9,063 nt of DNA. Origin: a virus. Taxonomy: Duplodnaviria; Heunggongvirae; Uroviricota; Caudoviricetes. The notes beneath the pieces were generated by a model, which saw only the letters and a list, made by a program, of their open reading frames with translations, searched no databases and was not told the DNA's origin. Below are positions 1 to 6,853 of the stretch, piece after piece. The stretch's first letter is position 1; the number at the start of each line of letters is the position of its first letter. The stretch lies in the IMG/VR virus record IMGVR_UViG_3300029121_000075; one strand, given 5' to 3'. The translations under genes were made by a program, and so were the position numbers.

Positions 1-465
1 GTGTCCATTAAAAATGATGGACATTATTTTTGTAGAGCCGGAGGAAACAGACCAGACGGTTTAAATGAGCCGGTTACGTTGATGCGTGATATTCAGATGG
101 TTCTTGAGCGTTGGGGAGCGTGGGCGGCTAATAATCATGAAGATGTGACCTGGTCGTCCATTGCCGCCGGTTTTAAGGGATTAATTACTTCAAAAGTAAA
201 ATCTCGCCCGCAATGTTGTGACGATGACGCGATGATCATTTGCGGGTGCATGGCCCGTCTGAAAAAGAACAACAGCGATTTGCACGATTTATTAGTAGAT
301 TATTATGTAGTCGGTATGACATTCATGTCACTGGCAGGTAAGCATTGCTGCTCTGATGGTTATATCGGGAAAAGGTTACAGAAGGCTGAGGGCATAATTG
401 AAGGGATGTTAATGGCATTAGATATCCGGTTAGAGATGGATATCGTTGTTAATAACTCTAATTAA
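1..465 (+). CDS. Late-gene antitermination protein Q (lambdoid, DLP12 QuuD-like type). Drawn from the GTG at the window edge; a more probable start is ATG 82 (127 aa).
   Basis: Frame is open from position 1. Cys-rich segments ([20 protein letters not shown]) fit a Q-type zinc-binding region. Sits immediately upstream of a convergent porin gene and the lysis cassette, as in DLP12 (quuD then nmpC). Identification is from memory of the family, not a search. Confidence 0.7.
19..77. repeat. Left arm of an exact 59-bp inverted repeat (partner 9005-9063)
   Basis: I reverse-complemented 19-77 by hand and it equals 9005-9063 base for base. Identity stops at 78 vs 9004. Possible extension into 1-18 cannot be tested because the partner would lie beyond 9063. 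Confidence 0.95.
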
Positions 466-490
466 TACGCCAATTATTTACTAAAAGTTA

Positions 491-516
491 TTAAAAATGG
501 GGCGTTGAAACGCCCC
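491..516 (-). terminator. Candidate intrinsic terminator for the porin gene (minus strand)
   Basis: GC-rich hairpin GGGGCG(499-504)/CGCCCC(511-516). On the minus strand the hairpin is followed by AUUUUUAA (complement of 491-498). Lies about 140 nt downstream of the porin stop. Confidence 0.45.
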
Positions 517-604
517 CAAAAATAAAGGGTAATATATAACAGAAGGTTTGTATAGTTAGAAGCAAGGTTGTGCTTCTAAAGGAAGTGGCTTGAGGGAGCC
601 ACTT

Positions 605-645
605 ATATGTTGGGGAGGCAAAGCCTCCCACAACATATCTTTTAG
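605..645 (+). terminator. Long imperfect hairpin, possible plus-strand terminator between convergent Q and porin genes
   Basis: ATATGTTGGGGAGG / CCTCCCACAACATAT palindrome (core GGGAGG-CAAAG-CCTCCC) followed by CTTTTAG. The U-tract is short, so function is uncertain. Confidence 0.3.
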
Positions 646-653
646 TAATCAAA

Positions 654-1736
654 TTAGAACTGGTAAACCATACCTACAGCAACGATATCATCGGTAGCAA
701 CGCCAGATGCTTTCGTGAAATCGCTCTTATCAATCAGGTTGATTTTGTAGTCAACAAAAGTGGACATATTTTTGTTGAAGTAATAGGTTGCACCTACATC
801 AACATATTCAACCAGGTCCTGATCACCCCAAACACCCAAGTCTTTTCCTTTAGAATGCAGGTAAGCAACGGATGGACGCAGGCCGAAGTCGAACTGATAT
901 TGTGCAACAGCTTCGAAGTTTTGTGCTTTGTTGGCAATATGGTTATTACCAAAAACAGTCATGTTCTGGGTTTCAGAATAGGTGGTGGCCAGATAGATGT
1001 TGTTCGCATCATATTTCAGACCAGCTGCCCATACTTCAGCATTTTGACCAGAAGCATTCAGACCGTTGTTACCGTAGATAACCTGATTATTAGTGCGATC
1101 AGATTTAGCATAGGTTGCACCCACGCCGAATCCTTCATACTCATAAGTAGTTGAGAAACCGAAACCATCGCCATTAGCTTCAGTTACTTCATTTCGGTCA
1201 TTTTTGCCCTGATACTGAGCTGCAAAGTTCAGGCCATCAACCAGACCAAAGAAGTCGTTGTTACGATAAGTTGCAACACCTGTGGTGCGACCAGTCATGA
1301 ATACATCTGTTTGGGTCCAGGTATCGCCACCGAATTCTGGCAGAACGTCAGTCCACGCACCGATGTCGTATGCTACACCGTAGTTACGGCCGTAATCGAT
1401 TGAGCCGTAGTCACCGAATTTCAGGCCTGCAAATGCAAGACGGGTTTTGTCTTTGGAGGAACCTTGAGATTCAGCGCGGTTGCCTTTGAATTCATATTCC
1501 CACTGACCGAAACCAGTCAGTTGATCGTTGATTTGGGTTTCACCTTTGAAGCCAAGACGGGCATAAGTAGTATCACCATCATCTGCATCATTAGAGGAGA
1601 AGTAGTGCTTAGCATTAACTTTCCCGTACAGATCCAGCTTGTTACTGTCTTTATTATAAATTTCAGCTGCCTGAGCAGACATCGCCATCAGTACTGATGC
1701 AGCTACAGCAGAAATTGCCACTGTTAATTTTTTCAT
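654..1736 (-). CDS. nmpC: Outer-membrane general porin, OmpC/OmpF/PhoE family (prophage-borne NmpC/Lc/OmpD type)
   Basis: 360-aa ORF. N-terminal signal peptide [23 protein letters not shown] then AEIYNK. Porin hallmarks [32 protein letters not shown], and C-terminal aromatic end ...VGMVYQF. Placement between Q and the holin on the opposite strand matches DLP12 nmpC and phage PA-2 lc. Confidence 0.92.
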
Positions 1737-2324
1737 CGTGAGCCCTTTTTTTTGAACTATTATTAAAAAATGATGTCACTGCGCGATAAATATTCATCTA
1801 ATCAATGTGATTATTTCAAGATGTAAGTTTTAGTTTCTCATTTAATTTGTGAAGTAGATCTCTATTTTTATCTGAACTTTTTCTATCGAAACCTATTTAT
1901 GGCTCTTATTTGAACAAAAATAAACCTATTAGCTAATTTATATTAATGGCTGTTATTTATGGGGGTTCTATAATTCGGCAGTTTAATTTAAATCAACTAA
2001 AAATAACGTCTGAAATTATTTATTGGTTATTTGTTGAGGTTTTCTTATGTATTTGTGGTGGAGTTTTGAACACTCGGTAGCATTCTCATAAATATCATTC
2101 AGTGGTTTACGTACGTAAAAAATTGGTTATGCTGTTAAGAGTGGTTACTTCGTCACACAGCTTAAACCCGCCGTCGAGCTGGTTTTTCCATTTTTTGAGT
2201 CTCGATATTAGCTGATAACTCAATACCTGAGTTATTCACTGACTCCGAGTCTGTTACGTTTCTGCTTTTTTGCGATACGTTGTATTCCCTCAATTTACAC
2301 CCGCTTTGTCTGCGAGGTGGGGTT

Positions 2325-2540
2325 ATGAAATCCATGGATAAGTTAACAACGGGTGTCGCCTATGGCACCTCAGCAGGTAGTGCCGGTTACTGGTTTTTAC
2401 AGCTGCTCGATAAAGTCACGCCCTCACAGTGGGCAGCAATAGGTGTGCTGGGTAGCCTGGTATTTGGCCTGCTGACGTACCTGACAAATCTTTATTTCAA
2501 GATTAAAGAAGACAGGCGTAAGGCTGCGAGAGGAGAGTAA
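2325..2540 (+). CDS. Class II holin (pinholin), phage 21 S21-like, with dual-start motif (Met1 antiholin, Met4 holin)
   Basis: 71 aa starting MKSMDK, near-identical in pattern to S21 ([13 protein letters not shown]...[12 protein letters not shown]...[19 protein letters not shown]). Shine-Dalgarno GAGGTGGGG lies 6 nt upstream of ATG 2325. The ORF-track start at 2280 is a non-ATG upstream extension. Confidence 0.92.
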
Positions 2541-2544
2541 TCCA

Positions 2545-2852
2545 ATGACTCAAGACTATGAACTGGTTGTGAAAGGAGTCCGTAATTTTGAGAATAAAGT
2601 TACGGTAACTGTAGCCTTACAGGACAAAGAACGCTTTGACGGTGAAATTTTTGGCCTGGATGTCGCCATGGACCGTGTTGAAGGAGCTGCGCTGGAGTTT
2701 TATGAGGTAGCAGCCAGAATGAGCGTCCGGCAAGTCTTCCTGGAAGTAGCAGAAAAATTGTCAGAAAAAGTTGAGTCTTATCTGCAGCATCAGTACTCCT
2801 TTAAGATTGAAAATCCTGCCAATAAGCACGAGCGTCCTCATCATAAATATCT

Positions 2853-2856
<4 letters not shown>
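2545..2856 (+). CDS. ydfR: YdfR-like protein (DUF1327), unknown function, inside the lysis cassette
   Basis: 103 aa, no predicted transmembrane segment. Starts 5 nt after the holin stop behind SD GAGAGGAGAG and overlaps the endolysin start (ATGA). Same size and position as ydfR between essQ and rrrQ in the K-12 Qin prophage. Confidence 0.8.
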
Positions 2857-3880
<1,024 letters not shown>

Positions 3881-4130
3881 ATTAATATTAAATCGGATTA
3901 TTTTTAGCGCTGAATGTGAAATTTAAATAAAAAGGACTCTTCCATGAGTCAAAATCCTTGAAATCTTAAGGGTAAGATAAAAGGTCATTAGACAGAATGA
4001 CACGTTTTATTAATAAATAAAGCTATTGTTTCATTCGTGTGTTTTTCTTTACAAAAGTAATCCTTGCTATGGTTGGTTAATCATGCGTTAATGGTGTTCT
4101 GGTTTGTTACAAAATTATCTGAAGCAGTCA

Positions 4131-4243
4131 TTGTTATAATTTTATTATTTGTACCTCTTGAGATTTCCTTGTTGGTTTTTCTCTCTGATATTTTTTTTCG
4201 GACCATTCTGCCCAAGGGCTAACTTCTTCAAAAGGTAATAATG
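4131..4243 (+). promoter_or_regulatory. Candidate promoter and 5' UTR of the cold-shock gene
   Basis: Extended -10 TGTTATAAT at 4132-4140 in an AT-rich upstream region. UTR segment GCCCAAGGGC...AAAGGTAATA resembles the cspA upstream box plus SD. No transcript data. Confidence 0.3.
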
Positions 4244-4456
4244 ATGTCTAACAAAATGACTGGTTTAGTGAAATGGTTTAACCCTGAAAAAGGTTTTGGT
4301 TTCATCACGCCGAAAGATGGTAGCAAAGATGTGTTTGTGCATTTCTCAGCTATTCAGAGCAACGATTTCAAAACGTTAACTGAGAATCAGGAAGTCGAAT
4401 TTGGTATTGAGAACGGACCTAAAGGCCCTGCAGCTGTTCATGTAGTGACACTTTGA
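4244..4456 (+). CDS. cspI: Cold-shock protein, CspA family (CspI-like)
   Basis: 70 aa [38 protein letters not shown]... with RNP1 (KGFGFI) and RNP2 (VFVHF) motifs. SD AAAGG upstream. The ORF track begins one codon earlier at ATG 4241. Confidence 0.92.
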
Positions 4457-4660
4457 GGTAGAAAATATTACAAACCATATTCACTTTAGATGCCCGTGTT
4501 GCCATGGTTCTCAGTATAGAACATCATCTTTTGATGTTTCTGACAGAAATCCTTTCGGGGCAAAATGTATCTTTTGTAAATCAATGATGATTACATTTGA
4601 TAATATTTCACAATACTTAAATGTTAGCCATCTGTCGTTAGATTTAAGAAAGTGAAAATG

Positions 4661-4684
4661 AAGGCTCCTTCGGGAGCTTTTTTG
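4661..4684 (+). terminator. Intrinsic terminator (UUCG tetraloop hairpin plus U-tract)
   Basis: GGCTCC-TTCG-GGAGCT stem-loop (4663-4678) immediately followed by TTTTTT. Lies about 200 nt after the cspI stop and before the ynfN-like ORF. Confidence 0.6.
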
Positions 4685-4802
4685 CTTAGTGTCTAGTCGA
4701 TGGATACTCACATATTACGGTAACATTATGAAAAAAATAATAGTTTTTTTTAACTCTGAACCAGCAATGGTAGTGCCAGTGATGACCGGAGTTAACACCA
4801 TC

Positions 4803-4958
4803 ATGCGTGAATATCCAAATGGCGAAACAACACACCTCACTGTAATGGCTGCAGGGTTTCCATCTCTGACCGGAGATCATAAAGTCATTTATGTAGCAGC
4901 GGATCGACATGTAACTTCAGAAGAAATTCTGGAAGCAGCAATGAGACTCTTGAATTGA
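4803..4958 (+). CDS. ynfN: YnfN-like small prophage protein (51 aa); start uncertain
   Basis: 51-aa MREYPNGETTHLTVMAAGFPSLTGDHKVIYVAADRHVTSEEILEAAMRLLN matches my recollection of Qin YnfN in size and sequence pattern. GGAG lies 11 nt upstream. The frame stays open upstream to ATG 4728 (MKKIIVFF...) and GTG 4689. Confidence 0.6.
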   Translation: MREYPNGETTHLTVMAAGFPSLTGDHKVIYVAADRHVTSEEILEAAMRLLN

Positions 4959-5130
4959 TTTGATTCTAATGCATTGATAATAAATGATAATCATCTTTAT
5001 CTGTTTGTGTGAAATTTAGACCGTCGTATGTTGATTATTGCGATGTTTCATCTTATCTTTTATACGTTTGCTCCATATAATTGACACTACTGTGTACCAG
5101 GACAGTCATAACAGACTAAAAGAGGAAATG

Positions 5131-5304
5131 ATGAACATTGAAGAGTTAAAAACAAAAACAGAAGCAGATATTTCTGAATATATAACAAAAAAAATCATTG
5201 AGCTTAAGAAAAAGACCGGGAAAGAAGTTACCAGTATCCAGTTTACTGCACGGGAAAAAATGACTGGTCTTGAAAGCTATGATATCAAGATTGATTTAAT
5301 CTAG
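5131..5304 (+). CDS. gnsB: GnsA/GnsB-family small protein (57 aa)
   Basis: MNIEELK...KTGKEV..I.FTAREKMTGLESYD.KI is the Gns family signature. SD GAGG at 5122-5125. The TTG-initiated extension back to 5038 in the ORF track is not supported. Confidence 0.85.
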   Translation: MNIEELKTKTEADISEYITKKIIELKKKTGKEVTSIQFTAREKMTGLESYDIKIDLI

Positions 5305-5366
5305 CATGTTTATAGTATTAGCATCAATTTCTCATCAGATGCTATTCAACAATACAAATTACCCAT

Positions 5367-5392
5367 AAACCTCGTTTTTACGGGGTTTTGTT
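5367..5392 (+). terminator. Candidate intrinsic terminator downstream of the gnsB-like gene
   Basis: Hairpin CCUCG-UUUUUA-CGGGG (5370-5385), extendable by A:U pairs, followed by UUUUGUUAUAUUU. Confidence 0.35.
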
Positions 5393-5599
5393 ATATTTAA
5401 ACATTACCGAATAGATATAAATCTCGATTGTCGATGGTATTGGTTGTGTGACAATACCTAGTCTTTCCGGTATGCCTGAAGAGAATACAAACGACAGATT
5501 ATGTAAGGGAAACGCGCTGAAACTTTCACTCTTTCATGCTGAGTGATTTGACGTTATATTTTTAGCCGCAAGTGAAGAGCAAACGAATGGAGCGACAAA

Positions 5600-5806
5600 A
5601 TGCATAAAGATCAATACACTGATGCCCCCTCCCAGGAGCAGGTTCGTGTAAAAACTATGCTTAATAGCACCATTTCGATGGGTTACCCGGATGTTGTAAT
5701 TGCATGTATAGAACATCAAGTATCTCTGGAAGCATTCAGGGCAATTGAGGCCGCGTTAGTAAAGCACGATAAGAATACGAAGGATTATTCCCTGGTGGTT
5801 GACTGA
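5600..5806 (+). CDS. Hypothetical protein (68 aa), orphan ORF upstream of cos
   Basis: ATG preceded by GGAG at 5589-5592 (7-nt spacer). No transmembrane segment or recognisable motif. Positionally equivalent to the ydfO region of Qin, but I cannot confirm homology. Confidence 0.5.
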
Positions 5807-6175
5807 TCACCATAACTGCTAACCATTCTGACCATTTCACAAGTGACAGAGTCAATATCGTATTCTGTCACTGTAAGGCTAATACAGTACTGCAATTCAA
5901 CTACAGCAATGCCTCGTATTTAGGTGAATTTACAATATCGTCCAGTTCGGATGCCGGCTGCATTTCTGAAGATAAGGCATTTCGGTTCGCGTATTTTCCC
6001 CTCATGCTCGTCAGTCCTGCGCGTAGTAAGAAACAGGACACTCACACTAATTTGTGTGGGCATGCTGTGATGTCCTTCTGAATTATCCCCATGCCATTAT
6101 GTAACGCTCTGTTTCAGATGCTCGTCACGGTTGTCAGGCTGTCGGGTCCTCCCAGTGGGGGTCCCTGCCACGGGG

Positions 6176-6200
6176 CGGGAGCGTCGCGGAAAAAGGCTAG
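6176..6200. other. cosN-like cohesive-end site (terminase nicking site); predicted 12-nt overhang GGGCGGGAGCGT at 6183-6194
   Basis: ACG-GGGCGGGAGCGT-CGCGG aligns ungapped with lambda cosN ACG-GGGCGGCGACCT-CGCGG (13 of 17 core positions identical). Downstream GCTAGTTTTTGAAATTTC...TTCGTCAT parallels lambda GCTATTTATGAAAATTTTC...TTCGTCAT. Lies about 165 bp upstream of the small terminase start, as in lambda. Confidence 0.55.
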
Positions 6201-6237
6201 TTTTTGAAATTTCATTCGTCATCACCACCACTGTAAT

Positions 6238-6265
6238 AGATTGATATTACAGTGGTTTTATTTTT
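6238..6265. repeat. Perfect 11-bp inverted repeat with 6-bp spacer inside the AT-rich cosB-like region
   Basis: CCACTGTAATA-GATTGA-TATTACAGTGG read directly, followed by TTTTATTTTTATGG. Possible terminase small-subunit or IHF binding site, or an RNA hairpin. Confidence 0.8.
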
Positions 6266-6358
6266 ATGGTGTCGATTTTGATTGTTTTTTGTTCATCACT
6301 AACACCGTTTGCCTAAAGTTGTTCGCGAGATGCATGTTTAAAACATTCTGGAGCGGGT

Positions 6359-6853
6359 ATGGATCGAGAGTTAAAAAATCTGACGCTGAATATCAGTCAA
6401 CTGGCGGCACTGTCAGGTGTACATCGCCAGACTGCTGCGGCAAGGCTGCAAAATCTACCCGTTGCAGGGGGGCATGAAAGCAACCTCAAGCTTTATCGGG
6501 TGGTTGATATTGTGTCGGCATTTCTGGCATTGCCACCGCCGGTTGCAGAAGGCGAAATGGACGCGCATGAGCGCAAAGCCTGGTATCAGTCTGAACGTGA
6601 GCGTCTTAAGTTCGAACAGGAAACGGCACAACTCATTCCGGCCAGTGATGTCAGACGGGAGTTTGCCATCTGGGCAAAAGCGGTCGTGCAGGTGCTGGAG
6701 ACATTACCGGATATTCTGGAACGTGACTGCGGTCTGCAGCCTGCCGCTGTGAGCCGTGTTCAGTCCATTATTGATGATCTGCGCGATCAGATAGCCCTGC
6801 GGGTGACTGAAGCAGGTGCGGATGATGAGGAGGAATTACAGCAGGAGGAGTAA
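6359..6853 (+). CDS. Terminase small subunit (Nu1-like, winged-HTH DNA-binding)
   Basis: 164 aa. N-terminal HTH-like LNISQLAALSGVHRQTAAARLQNLPVAGG parallels lambda Nu1 (QLADIFGASIRTIQNWQEQGMPVLRGGG). Acidic C-terminus. SD GGAG 5 nt upstream. Stop overlaps the terL ATG (TAATG). Confidence 0.8.
   Translation: MDRELKNLTLNISQLAALSGVHRQTAAARLQNLPVAGGHESNLKLYRVVDIVSAFLALPPPVAEGEMDAHERKAWYQSERERLKFEQETAQLIPASDVRREFAIWAKAVVQVLETLPDILERDCGLQPAAVSRVQSIIDDLRDQIALRVTEAGADDEEELQQEE

What the first reader, a model, noticed from the sequence alone, without database searches (positions are those of the whole stretch)
466..2324. Convergent porin gene between Q and the lysis genes implies a displaced late promoter
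In lambda the Q-dependent promoter pR', qut and tR' lie immediately downstream of Q. Here the interval after Q holds terminator-like hairpins (499-516, 605-638) facing a minus-strand porin gene. Any Q-modified late transcript must either start downstream of the porin, in the AT-rich 1737-2324 region, or read antisense through it. A candidate lambda-pR'-like promoter is TTGAAC (2066-2071), 17-bp spacer, TAAATA (2089-2094), with a T-rich stretch at 2180-2200. The porin is a plausible lysogenic-conversion gene (Lc of phage PA-2, NmpC of DLP12).
Basis: partly seen in the sequence, partly recalled or inferred. Interest (0 to 1): 0.4.

Follow-up and report, generated by a model that had tools for sequence, protein, structure and literature searches.

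The report
Prophage late promoter displaced by porin

Summary
Q (82-465, +) is followed by a cluster of hairpins, a convergent intact porin gene (654-1736, -), an AT-rich spacer and an S21-type lysis cassette. The window is about 97% identical to the E. coli K-12 DLP12 nmpC-essD intergenic region. The inference that the late promoter is displaced downstream of the porin is supported. The conserved block at 2105-2187 is homologous to the PR' region of Shiga-toxin phages. Their Q is 77% identical, and their PR' start was mapped by dRNA-seq. By homology, PR' here has -35 TTTACG (2106-2111), -10 TATGCT (2128-2133) and +1 at A2140. Q acts in trans, so 1.64 kb of cargo between Q and PR' is tolerated. 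In 62 of 95 related loci, cargo separates Q from PR'. The layout is already known. One side lead may be new: a dyad-symmetric element centred at -27.5 changes sequence together with the Q helix-turn-helix and is a candidate Q-binding site.

The parts
82..465 (+). Antiterminator Q (QuuD type, 127 aa), Q21/Q933W family
   Evidence: Pfam PF06530 at E 3.5e-53. Q21 PDB chains match at E 7.5e-7. 77% identical to the Stx-phage Q933W-type Q. 100% identical to Q in 79 of the 80 IMG/VR loci kept, 99% in the other. Homology to the Stx Q ends near 446.
499..638 (.). Cluster of four hairpins between the convergent Q and porin genes (499-516, 556-579, 583-604, 605-638). On the minus strand, 516-499 carries a U tract and is the likely porin terminator. 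On the plus strand, 605-638 is followed by CUUUU.
   Evidence: fold z = -7.4 / -8.1. The same roughly 189-bp Q-to-porin spacing is seen in K-12, and the first ~100 bp after Q (window 466-560) align almost identically with K-12.
654..1736 (-). Intact OmpC-family porin (NmpC/Lc type, 360 aa), the cargo gene
   Evidence: Porin_1 at E 3.6e-152. 91% identical to K-12 NmpC fragment 1, with differences clustered in two segments. Annotated as porin OmpC/OmpD/NmpC in phages ev099, ev243, PhiR68_2 and others.
1737..2105 (.). AT-rich porin upstream region, right-hand part of the cargo cassette. The porin promoter is not located.
   Evidence: GC 25-29%. About 97% identical to the K-12 nmpC-essD spacer. 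The K-12 counterpart is listed as an H-NS-bound 'promoter island' (PMC3661553).
1754..1786 (+). Inferred sigma-E-type promoter GAACTA-16-TCACT with +1 at about A1786. This appears to be the '+1' used for the DLP12 lysis cassette in the literature.
   Evidence: The Pasqua 2021 primers for '-121 to +650' map to window 1664 and about 2450, which puts +1 at K-12 position 576,874 = window 1786. The motif reading is my own inference.
2066..2094 (+).
   Evidence: Hexamers are altered in K-12 and in most relatives. It lies outside the cross-lineage homology block. It fails the scan and ranks 22nd by PWM.
2106..2119 (.). Perfect 14-bp palindrome TTTACGT|ACGTAAA centred at -27.5, overlapping the -35 element; candidate Q-binding element
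   Evidence: In 8 of 9 Q helix-turn-helix groups the longest dyad in -57..-8 sits at -27.5 or -28, with arms of 4-7 bp. The chance of that is about 0.019 per sequence. Dyad sequence maps one-to-one onto the Q helix-turn-helix motif.
2106..2140 (+). Late promoter PR': -35 TTTACG 2106-2111, 16-bp spacer, -10 TATGCT 2128-2133, +1 A2140
   Evidence: Homologous to the Stx-phage PR' TTTACG-16-TATCAT. In strain Sakai the dRNA-seq start falls on the aligned A. I derived this from the 258-nt distance to the tR' 3' end and from the RNase E site at +173 (PMC7547250). TA at -12/-11 is kept across diverse lineages. The block is invariant in 75 of 76 prophages with identical Q; the exception (L040) carries an insertion in the PR' spacer.
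2141..2156 (+). Highly conserved initial transcribed region (GTGGTTAC...CAC), possible small hairpin. Presumed to hold the pause and Q-loading signals, which are not resolved.
   Evidence: No convincing -10-like element was found.
2164..2196 (+). Promoter-proximal terminator-like hairpin (AAACCCGC-CGTCGA-GCTGGTTT) with T tracts 2183-2187 and 2191-2196; candidate tR'. T2180 weakens the stem in this window.
   Evidence: Detected as a terminator in K-12 and Sakai but not here. Fold energy is -8.4 kcal/mol here against -14.1 in K-12. Other lineages have different stems plus a U tract at the same position. The T variant occurs in 23 of 76 close relatives and in phage ev099.
2325..3880 (+). Late lysis cassette: S21-type holin 2325-2540, DUF1327/YdfR 2545-2856, lysozyme 2853-3386, Rz-like 3383-3880
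   Evidence: Pfam PF04971, PF07041, PF00959, PF10721.

Best explanation
The window is the Q-to-late-operon junction of a DLP12/PA-2-type lambdoid prophage.

A cassette of about 1.66 kb (roughly 447-2105) sits between the Q gene and Q's cognate late promoter. It holds a minus-strand porin gene, the porin's AT-rich upstream region and its 3' hairpins.

The late promoter PR' is TTTACG-16-TATGCT (2106-2133) and starts transcription at about A2140. The transcript runs through a conserved leader with a terminator-like hairpin and U tract (2164-2196), then into holin, endolysin, Rz and the packaging genes.

Q is made from the early rightward transcript. It is a diffusible protein that loads onto RNA polymerase at PR'. 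It therefore needs no physical adjacency, which is why cargo can be lodged between Q and PR'.

What is shown: the gene order, homology of 2105-2187 to an experimentally mapped PR', the conservation pattern and the hairpin structure.

What is inferred: that PR' is active and Q-dependent in this element, that the 2164-2196 hairpin is the terminator Q overrides, and that the porin is expressed from its own promoter in the lysogen.
For: Gene content and families.

Identity with K-12 DLP12 quuD-nmpC-essD.

Window 2105-2187 matches the DNA immediately after Q in about 290 Stx-type phage records, where it is annotated as putative PR' plus terminator.

The Q proteins are 77% identical.

The Sakai PR' start mapped by dRNA-seq (PMC7547250) falls on the base aligned with window 2140. 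I checked this through the 258-nt distance to the tR' T tract and the GU|AUU site at +173.

In every cargo-bearing lineage examined, homology resumes just upstream of the -35 element.

In 95 loci that have both Q and this PR' block, the Q-to-PR' gap is either 16 bp or less (33 loci) or 0.6-3 kb (62 loci).

The leader hairpin plus U tract is kept with different stem sequences in different lineages.

The literature states that the DLP12 lysis operon is under the control of the phage Q-type antiterminator (PMC7918800, citing Rueggeberg 2013).
Against: - There are no transcription data for this element or, in what I could access, for K-12 at the predicted start (genome position 577,229).
- The -35 and -10 elements each match consensus at only 4 of 6 positions. 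A motif search alone does not single them out.
- No convincing sigma-dependent pause element (a -10-like hexamer) was found in +1..+25.
- In this window the leader hairpin carries a stem mismatch (T2180) and fails the terminator scan.
- In Stx phages the constitutive PR' transcript ends at a second terminator 258 nt downstream, so the first hairpin is not a complete block there.
- The published '+1' of the DLP12 lysis cassette appears to be a different, upstream start at window position 1786.
Confidence: 0.85

Rival explanations
1. The reader's TTGAAC (2066) / TAAATA (2089) pair is the Q-dependent late promoter.
For: The hexamers exist with a 17-bp spacer. They lie upstream of the conserved leader.
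Against: - The -10 lacks the -7 T and matches consensus at 3 of 6 positions, so it fails the scan.
- In K-12 DLP12 the hexamers read TTCAAT / CAAATA, and likewise in about 50 of 76 prophages with identical Q.
- The pair is absent from the Stx, SfII, PhiR55_1 and phiP27 homologues, whose similarity begins at 2105.
Confidence: 0.04
2. The late promoter remains right after Q (466-650), and late transcripts read antisense through the porin.
For: Lambda and the Stx phages place PR' at the end of Q. Weak PWM hits exist at 505-535. Early N-modified transcripts probably do read through this interval (my inference).
Against: - Nothing after position 446 is homologous to the Stx PR'.
- The interval is filled by four strong hairpins.
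- The cognate promoter block is found intact at 2106.
Confidence: 0.03
3. The lysis genes are also, or in a domesticated prophage mainly, driven by a Q-independent sigma-E-type promoter at 1754-1780 (+1 about 1786). Its transcript would pass through the PR' region.
For: The published DLP12 reporter spans '-121 to +650'. Its primers place +1 at window 1786, directly downstream of GAACTA-16-TCACT. The literature states that RpoE regulates the DLP12 lysis cassette.
Against: - I could not read the primary paper, and the motif assignment is my own.
- Such a transcript would still meet the 2164-2196 hairpin.
- This does not replace PR', which is conserved across phages that lack this upstream region.
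Confidence: 0.45
4. The module is decaying: PR' or its terminator no longer functions as a Q switch in this element.
For: The stem mismatch at T2180 lowers hairpin stability. One relative carries a 768-bp insertion, apparently IS1, in the PR' spacer. K-12 DLP12 is defective.
Against: - The same T2180 allele is present in Escherichia phage ev099, a 47-kb record deposited as a phage genome.
- Q, porin, holin, lysozyme, Rz and both terminase genes are intact here.
- The promoter is invariant among relatives.
Confidence: 0.12

Closest known systems
E. coli K-12 cryptic prophage DLP12 (quuD - nmpC - essD/rrrD/rzpD), the qsr' region
   Same: - Same gene order and orientation.
- The 1700-2330 region is about 97% identical.
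- The porin is 91% identical.
- Same Q length and the same Q-to-porin spacing.
   Different: - The porin is intact here, whereas K-12 nmpC is split by IS5.
- This window has T2180 in the leader hairpin, where K-12 has G.
- This window has 16 extra bp at 2263-2278.
- A DUF1327 gene sits between holin and lysozyme.
- The downstream genes differ (cspA-like gene, terminase).
Phage PA-2 lc porin, and porin-carrying temperate coliphages (ev099, ev243, PhiR34_1, D2 and others)
   Same: Q, then a convergent porin, then an S21-type holin. ev099 is 99.3% identical over window 75-2541. That the porin acts as a lysogenic-conversion gene rests on established knowledge of PA-2 Lc, recalled from memory.
   Different: The PA-2 sequence itself was not in the searched collections, so the link to Lc goes through NmpC and annotation only.
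PR'-tR' late regulatory region of Shiga-toxin phages (933W, Sakai Sp5/Sp15, H-19B type) and its StxS RNA
   Same: - Q of the same family, 77% identical.
- Homologous -35, spacer, -10, start site, initial transcribed region and first hairpin.
- The promoter start is experimentally mapped (PMC7547250).
   Different: - In Stx phages PR' overlaps the Q stop codon (gap -14), and cargo (tRNAs, stx) lies downstream of PR'/tR'. Here cargo lies upstream of PR'.
- The Stx leader continues to a second terminator at +258 (StxS). That segment is absent here.
- The central two bases of the dyad differ (GA|TC against GT|AC).
Phage 21 Q-dependent cassette (Q21, QBE, SDPE; solved structures 6P18, 6JNX)
   Same: Same Pfam family (PF06530). 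A sigma-70 late promoter, with the presumed Q site lying between or over the -35 and -10 elements. S21-type holin downstream.
   Different: - Only distant sequence similarity (E 7.5e-7).
- The Q21 QBE is a direct repeat (TGAGCA x2 at -21/-13; PMC6606751), whereas the conserved element here is a dyad centred at -27.5.
- Q21's PR' abuts Q.

Membership tests
Q-dependent late regulatory cassette, Q21/Q933W family | Q protein of Pfam PF06530 | tested here: met
   E 3.5e-53 over the full profile. Matches Q21 PDB chains. 77% identical to Q933W-type Q.
Q-dependent late regulatory cassette, Q21/Q933W family | Sigma-70 late promoter PR' upstream of the lysis and morphogenesis genes | tested here: met
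   Met by homology only. Window 2106-2140 aligns with the dRNA-seq-mapped Stx PR'. There are no expression data for this element.
Q-dependent late regulatory cassette, Q21/Q933W family | PR' immediately downstream of, or overlapping, the Q gene | tested here: not met
   The gap from the Q stop codon to the -35 element is 1,640 bp. This is the 'displacement'. The same holds in 62 of 95 related loci, so adjacency is not obligatory in this branch.
Q-dependent late regulatory cassette, Q21/Q933W family | Q-binding element within the promoter | tested here: inconclusive
   No Q21-type direct repeat is present. A dyad at 2106-2119 changes together with the Q helix-turn-helix. Binding was not tested.
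Q-dependent late regulatory cassette, Q21/Q933W family | Sigma-dependent pause element (-10-like hexamer) in the initial transcribed region | tested here: inconclusive
   +7..+12 reads TACTTC here and TACATT in Stx phages. Positions 4-6 vary between lineages, so no assignment was made.
Q-dependent late regulatory cassette, Q21/Q933W family | Intrinsic terminator between PR' and the late genes | tested here: inconclusive
   A hairpin with a U tract is conserved at +25..+57 across lineages, with different stems, and is detected in K-12 and Sakai. In this window the stem has a mismatch and fails the scan.
Q-dependent late regulatory cassette, Q21/Q933W family | Q-dependent read-through in vivo or in vitro | not testable with these tools
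   Requires reporter or transcription assays.
Lambdoid porin cargo gene (NmpC of DLP12 / Lc of PA-2) | OmpC-family 16-strand porin with a signal peptide | tested here: met
   Porin_1 covers residues 29-360 at E 3.6e-152. 91% identical to NmpC.
Lambdoid porin cargo gene (NmpC of DLP12 / Lc of PA-2) | Located between Q and the lysis genes, transcribed opposite to the late operon, with its own terminator | tested here: met
Lambdoid porin cargo gene (NmpC of DLP12 / Lc of PA-2) | Expressed in the lysogen and alters outer-membrane composition or phage sensitivity | not testable with these tools
   Known for PA-2 Lc (recalled from memory). Not tested for this allele.

The most novel reading that the evidence does not exclude
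The perfect palindrome TTTACGT|ACGTAAA (2106-2119) may be the Q-binding element of the Q933W/QuuD branch of the Q21 family. That would make it a dyad-symmetric site centred at -27.5, unlike the direct-repeat site of Q21.

At least eight specificity groups exist. In each, a different palindrome at the same position is paired with a different Q helix-turn-helix sequence. This pairing holds whether Q and PR' are adjacent or separated by cargo.

A corollary is that the interval between the Q stop codon and this dyad is a dedicated cargo hotspot. In relatives it carries candidate anti-phage defence genes (PDC-S20, PDC-M53A, an OLD/HEC-04-like ATPase), and here it carries a porin.

I found no description of this element in the papers I could search, but I could not read the DLP12 Q papers.
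Probability: 0.45. Interest if true: 0.5.

Novelty: already known. Interest (0 to 1): 0.25.

Why it matters
For the finding as stated, little is new. The Q-porin-lysis layout is the textbook DLP12/PA-2 arrangement, and the Stx-phage homologue of this late promoter has been mapped.

Three points have practical value:

1. **Annotation.** The late promoter of this very common E. coli prophage type can be placed precisely at 2106-2140 rather than guessed from hexamers in an AT-rich 'promoter island'.
2. **Cargo site.** Because Q acts in trans, the Q-to-PR' gap is a permissive cargo site. In relatives it holds candidate defence genes. This complements the better-known cargo site downstream of PR' that carries stx.
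3. **A testable handle on Q specificity.** The dyad that changes together with the Q helix-turn-helix offers a way to study Q specificity, and hence which Q can switch on which late operon, including stx operons in strains with several prophages.

Tried and rejected
- **Motif-only promoter search.** The built-in scan found no promoters in 400-2400 against 5.5 expected by chance. A crude PWM ranked many AT-rich decoys above both candidates. I rejected this as a way to decide.
- **Rfam search of the whole window.** It returned only the cspA 5'UTR and nothing in the late leader.
- **Q21-type QBE.** I looked for direct repeats of TGAGCA and found none.
- **Sigma-dependent pause element.** I looked in +1..+25 and could not make a convincing assignment.
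- **Primary DLP12 papers.** I tried to read Rueggeberg 2013 and 2015; neither is held.
- **K-12 start-site data.** I looked for a mapped start at 577,229 in the supplements of an in vitro transcription study and in the Thomason 2015 paper. Nothing was found or held.
- **Regex extraction of the Q recognition helix.** My first attempt failed for most sequences. I replaced it with a MAFFT-based column extraction.
- **Off-by-one error.** The start index was wrong by one and was corrected from then on.
- **Palindrome as a divergent -35 for the porin.** TTTACG also occurs on the minus strand, paired with GATATT at 2096-2091. This cannot be general, because other lineages have unrelated palindromes at the same position.
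Full report
**1. What is in the window**

ORF listing and Pfam scans give this order:

| Coordinates | Strand | Feature |
|---|---|---|
| 82-465 | + | Q-type antiterminator, PF06530; the ORF is open from base 1 |
| 654-1736 | - | 360-aa OmpC-family porin |
| 2325-2540 | + | Phage-21-type holin |
| 2545-2856 | + | DUF1327 (YdfR-like) gene |
| 2853-3386 | + | Lysozyme |
| 3383-3880 | + | Rz-like protein |
| 4241-4456 | + | cspA-like gene; its thermoregulator 5'UTR (Rfam cspA match) spans 4086-4502 |
| 6359-6853, 6853-8955 | + | Small and large terminase genes |

BLAST against complete E. coli genomes and phages shows this is the DLP12/PA-2-type late region.
- The annotated features under the hits are quuD, porin, essD and lysozyme.
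- Temperate phages such as ev099 are 99.3% identical over window 75-2541 and have the same Q-porin-holin order.
- K-12 DLP12 has quuD, nmpC (split there by IS5) and essD in the same order and with the same spacing.
- Its nmpC-essD spacer aligns with window 1700-2330 at about 97% column identity.
- The porin is 91% identical to K-12 NmpC, with the differences clustered in two segments.

**2. Checking the observation**

- The 499-516 hairpin is called a minus-strand terminator-like site.
- The 605-638 hairpin is one of four tandem hairpins (499-516, 556-579, 583-604, 605-638). Their combined fold is far more stable than shuffled sequence, with z about -7 to -8.
- GC content falls to 25-29% over 1700-2100.
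- The hexamers TTGAAC (2066-2071) and TAAATA (2089-2094), and the T-rich run at 2180-2200, are as written.

It does not pass the scan, which found no promoter-like sites where shuffles give 5.5. In this AT-rich stretch, hexamer matching cannot discriminate: a crude PWM puts many decoys above either candidate.

**3. Where the late promoter is**

A sensitive BLAST of 1737-2324 against phage records gave the key result.
- Close relatives match along the whole length.
- About 290 Shiga-toxin phage records match only window 2105-2187.
- In those phages the matching DNA lies at the very end of Q. It is annotated as the putative late promoter PR' followed by a possible rho-independent terminator.
- The Q proteins are 77% identical.
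- Per the structural literature, PF06530 is the Q21/Q933W family, with a distant match to the Q21 structures.

The annotated Stx promoter is TTTACG-16-TATCAT. It is the only plus-strand promoter-like site the scan finds there.

Sy et al. 2020 (PMC7547250) mapped the PR' primary start in strain Sakai by dRNA-seq. It lies 258 nt upstream of the tR' 3' end, with an RNase E site GU|AUU at +173. Their coordinates do not fit the current Sakai record, so I located the start from the sequence itself. Counting 258 nt back from the tR' T tract gives L006:746. The GUAUU motif then falls exactly at +173. That base is the A seven nucleotides after TATCAT.

In the alignments this A corresponds to window A2140, TATCAT to TATGCT (2128-2133) and TTTACG to TTTACG (2106-2111).

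**4.

The -35, spacer, -10 and leader are invariant, apart from one hairpin position.
- Across lineages whose Q is only 46-84% identical (PhiR55_1, phiP27, SfII), similarity to the window begins at the -35 region. The -10 keeps T-12, A-11 and T-7 while its middle positions vary.
- A pattern search recovered 116 further examples with 58 distinct upstream sequences. TA at -12/-11 holds in nearly all of them. Caveat: the -7 T and the first 12 transcribed bases were fixed by the search pattern, so their invariance in that set is by construction.

**5. Why displacement works, and how general it is**

Homology between this Q and the Stx Q ends near window 446, inside the last codons of Q. It resumes at 2105. 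The cargo cassette is therefore about 1.66 kb, and the gap from the Q stop codon to the -35 element is 1,640 bp.

In 95 loci where I could find both a Q homologue and the PR' block, the gap falls into two classes:
- from -31 to +15 bp in 33 loci, including all Stx-type loci at -14;
- 0.6-3.0 kb in 62 loci.

The sample is the first rows of a capped scan, so these proportions are not population estimates.

In the displaced class the cargo is mostly on the minus strand and differs between lineages:
- the porin here;
- two genes in SfII;
- a 148-aa gene in PhiR55_1;
- a plus-strand GIY-YIG gene in phiP27.

Some cargo proteins match PADLOC candidate defence families: PDC-S20, PDC-M53A (SfII gene 50) and an OLD/HEC-04-like ATPase.

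That Q acts as a diffusible factor which loads at its binding site in PR' is established knowledge for Q proteins. It explains why adjacency is dispensable. I infer that in lytic growth N-modified early transcripts also run antisense through the porin, but they are not the late transcript.

**6. The leader and terminator**

From +25 the transcript can form AAACCCGC-CGTCGA-GCGGGUUU followed by U tracts.
- In K-12 and Sakai the scan calls this a terminator. In K-12 it is the only such site between nmpC and essD.
- In this window position 2180 is T instead of G. This breaks the central C-G pair.
- The minimum free energy rises from -14.1 to -8.4 kcal/mol, and an alternative 6-bp stem (2158-2163 with 2175-2180) takes over. 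The scan does not call the site here.
- The T allele is in 23 of 76 close relatives and in phage ev099, so it is a common variant rather than an error.
- In more distant lineages the same position carries hairpins with different stems (for example CCUCGC-UUCG-GCGGGG) followed by U tracts. This is structural conservation with sequence turnover.

I therefore read 2164-2196 as the terminator that Q overrides.

There is one caveat. In Stx phages the constitutive PR' RNA extends to a second terminator at +258. The first hairpin is thus not a complete block there, and short RNAs may have escaped those libraries.

**7. A second, Q-independent start**

The literature says the DLP12 lysis operon is controlled by the Q-type antiterminator, by RpoE and by Hha. 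I could not read the primary papers.

A later study cloned '-121 to +650' of the operon and listed its primers. The forward primer maps to window 1664 and the reverse primer to about 2450. This gives the stated 771 bp in K-12 and places that '+1' at K-12 576,874, which is window A1786. Directly upstream is GAACTA-16-TCACT. I read this as a sigma-E-type promoter, which is my inference.

So the AT-rich region probably holds at least two plus-strand starts plus the porin promoter, which I did not locate. The K-12 counterpart is listed among H-NS-bound 'promoter islands'.

**8. Side lead: a dyad that tracks Q specificity**

The -35 of PR' is the left arm of a perfect 14-bp palindrome, TTTACGT|ACGTAAA (2106-2119). 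The same position holds a palindrome in other lineages:

| Lineage or group | Palindrome at the same centre |
|---|---|
| This window / K-12 | TTTACGT\|ACGTAAA |
| Stx phages | TTTACGA\|TCGTAAA (a symmetric double change) |
| SfII type | GCGT\|ACGC |
| phiP27 | GGAA\|TTCC |
| Other groups | GCGG-T-CCGC, TTCGT-T-ACGAA, TGTTA\|TAACA, TGTCA\|TGACA |

- In 8 of 9 groups the longest dyad anywhere in -57..-8 is centred at -27.5 or -28, with arms of 4-7 bp.
- The ninth group (PhiR55_1) is a one-mismatch derivative of the Stx type.
- Shuffles give about 0.019 per sequence for arms of 4 or more at that spot.
- After aligning the Q proteins, each dyad type pairs with one version of the predicted helix-turn-helix segment. 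Examples are [11 protein letters not shown] here, CSDTCIGKRL(H/Q) in the Stx type and CSDGTIRKELQ in the SfII type.
- The pairing holds whether PR' is adjacent to Q or displaced.

This fits a Q-binding element, but it differs from the direct-repeat site of Q21.

Shared ancestry of Q and promoter could produce part of the correlation. Binding was not tested.

I could not assign a sigma-dependent pause element.

**9. Verdict**

- It is wrong in detail: the promoter is at 2106-2140, not 2066-2094, and the Q family is Q21/Q933W, not lambda.
- The layout is already known from DLP12, PA-2 and related phages, so the finding itself is ordinary.
- The dyad/Q co-variation and the cargo hotspot between Q and PR' are the only parts that might be new.

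Noticed in passing
window 2106-2119; related loci L087-L208: A perfect 14-bp palindrome overlaps the PR' -35 element. Other lineages carry different palindromes at the same centre (-27.5/-28), each paired with a distinct Q helix-turn-helix sequence. It is a candidate Q-binding element.
   Followed up: partly
window 2180 (hairpin 2164-2185): T here replaces the G of K-12 and breaks the central C-G pair of the leader terminator stem (-8.4 against -14.1 kcal/mol). The allele is shared by 23 of 76 close relatives and by phage ev099. It might make late-gene expression leakier.
   Followed up: partly
window 1754-1786: Sigma-E-like GAACTA-16-TCACT with +1 at about 1786 on the plus strand, only about 50 bp from the porin start codon. 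Primer coordinates in PMC7918800 imply this is the published '+1' of the DLP12 lysis cassette.
   Followed up: partly
L040 6145-6912 (IMG/VR prophage with identical Q): A 768-bp insertion sits inside the PR' spacer (window equivalent 2119-2126, with an 8-bp duplication) and separates -35 from -10. I identified it as IS1 from memory of its end sequence. It may be a natural knockout of the late promoter.
   Followed up: partly
Loci L089, L111, L118 and others, between Q and PR': In relatives the Q-to-PR' gap holds mostly minus-strand cargo. Some of it matches PADLOC candidate defence families: PDC-M53A (SfII gene 50), PDC-S20, and an OLD/HEC-04-like ATPase.
   Followed up: partly
window 499-638: Four tandem strong hairpins lie between the convergent Q and porin genes. 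U tracts sit at opposite ends on the two strands, so the two 3' UTRs would overlap by about 140 nt.
   Followed up: partly
window 4086-4502: A cspA-like cold-shock gene (4241-4456) with a full-length match to the Rfam cspA thermoregulator 5'UTR (107 bits) sits in the late region after Rz.
   Followed up: no
window 2545-2856: A DUF1327 (YdfR-family) gene is inserted between holin and lysozyme. It is absent from K-12 DLP12 and ev099 but present in some relatives.
   Followed up: no
window 2263-2278: A 16-bp segment (CTGCTTTTTTGCGATA) in the late leader is present here and in ev099 but deleted in K-12 DLP12.
   Followed up: no
window 4500-6350: An AT-rich stretch (31-43% GC) with only short ORFs lies between the csp gene and the small terminase gene. 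I did not examine it.
   Followed up: no
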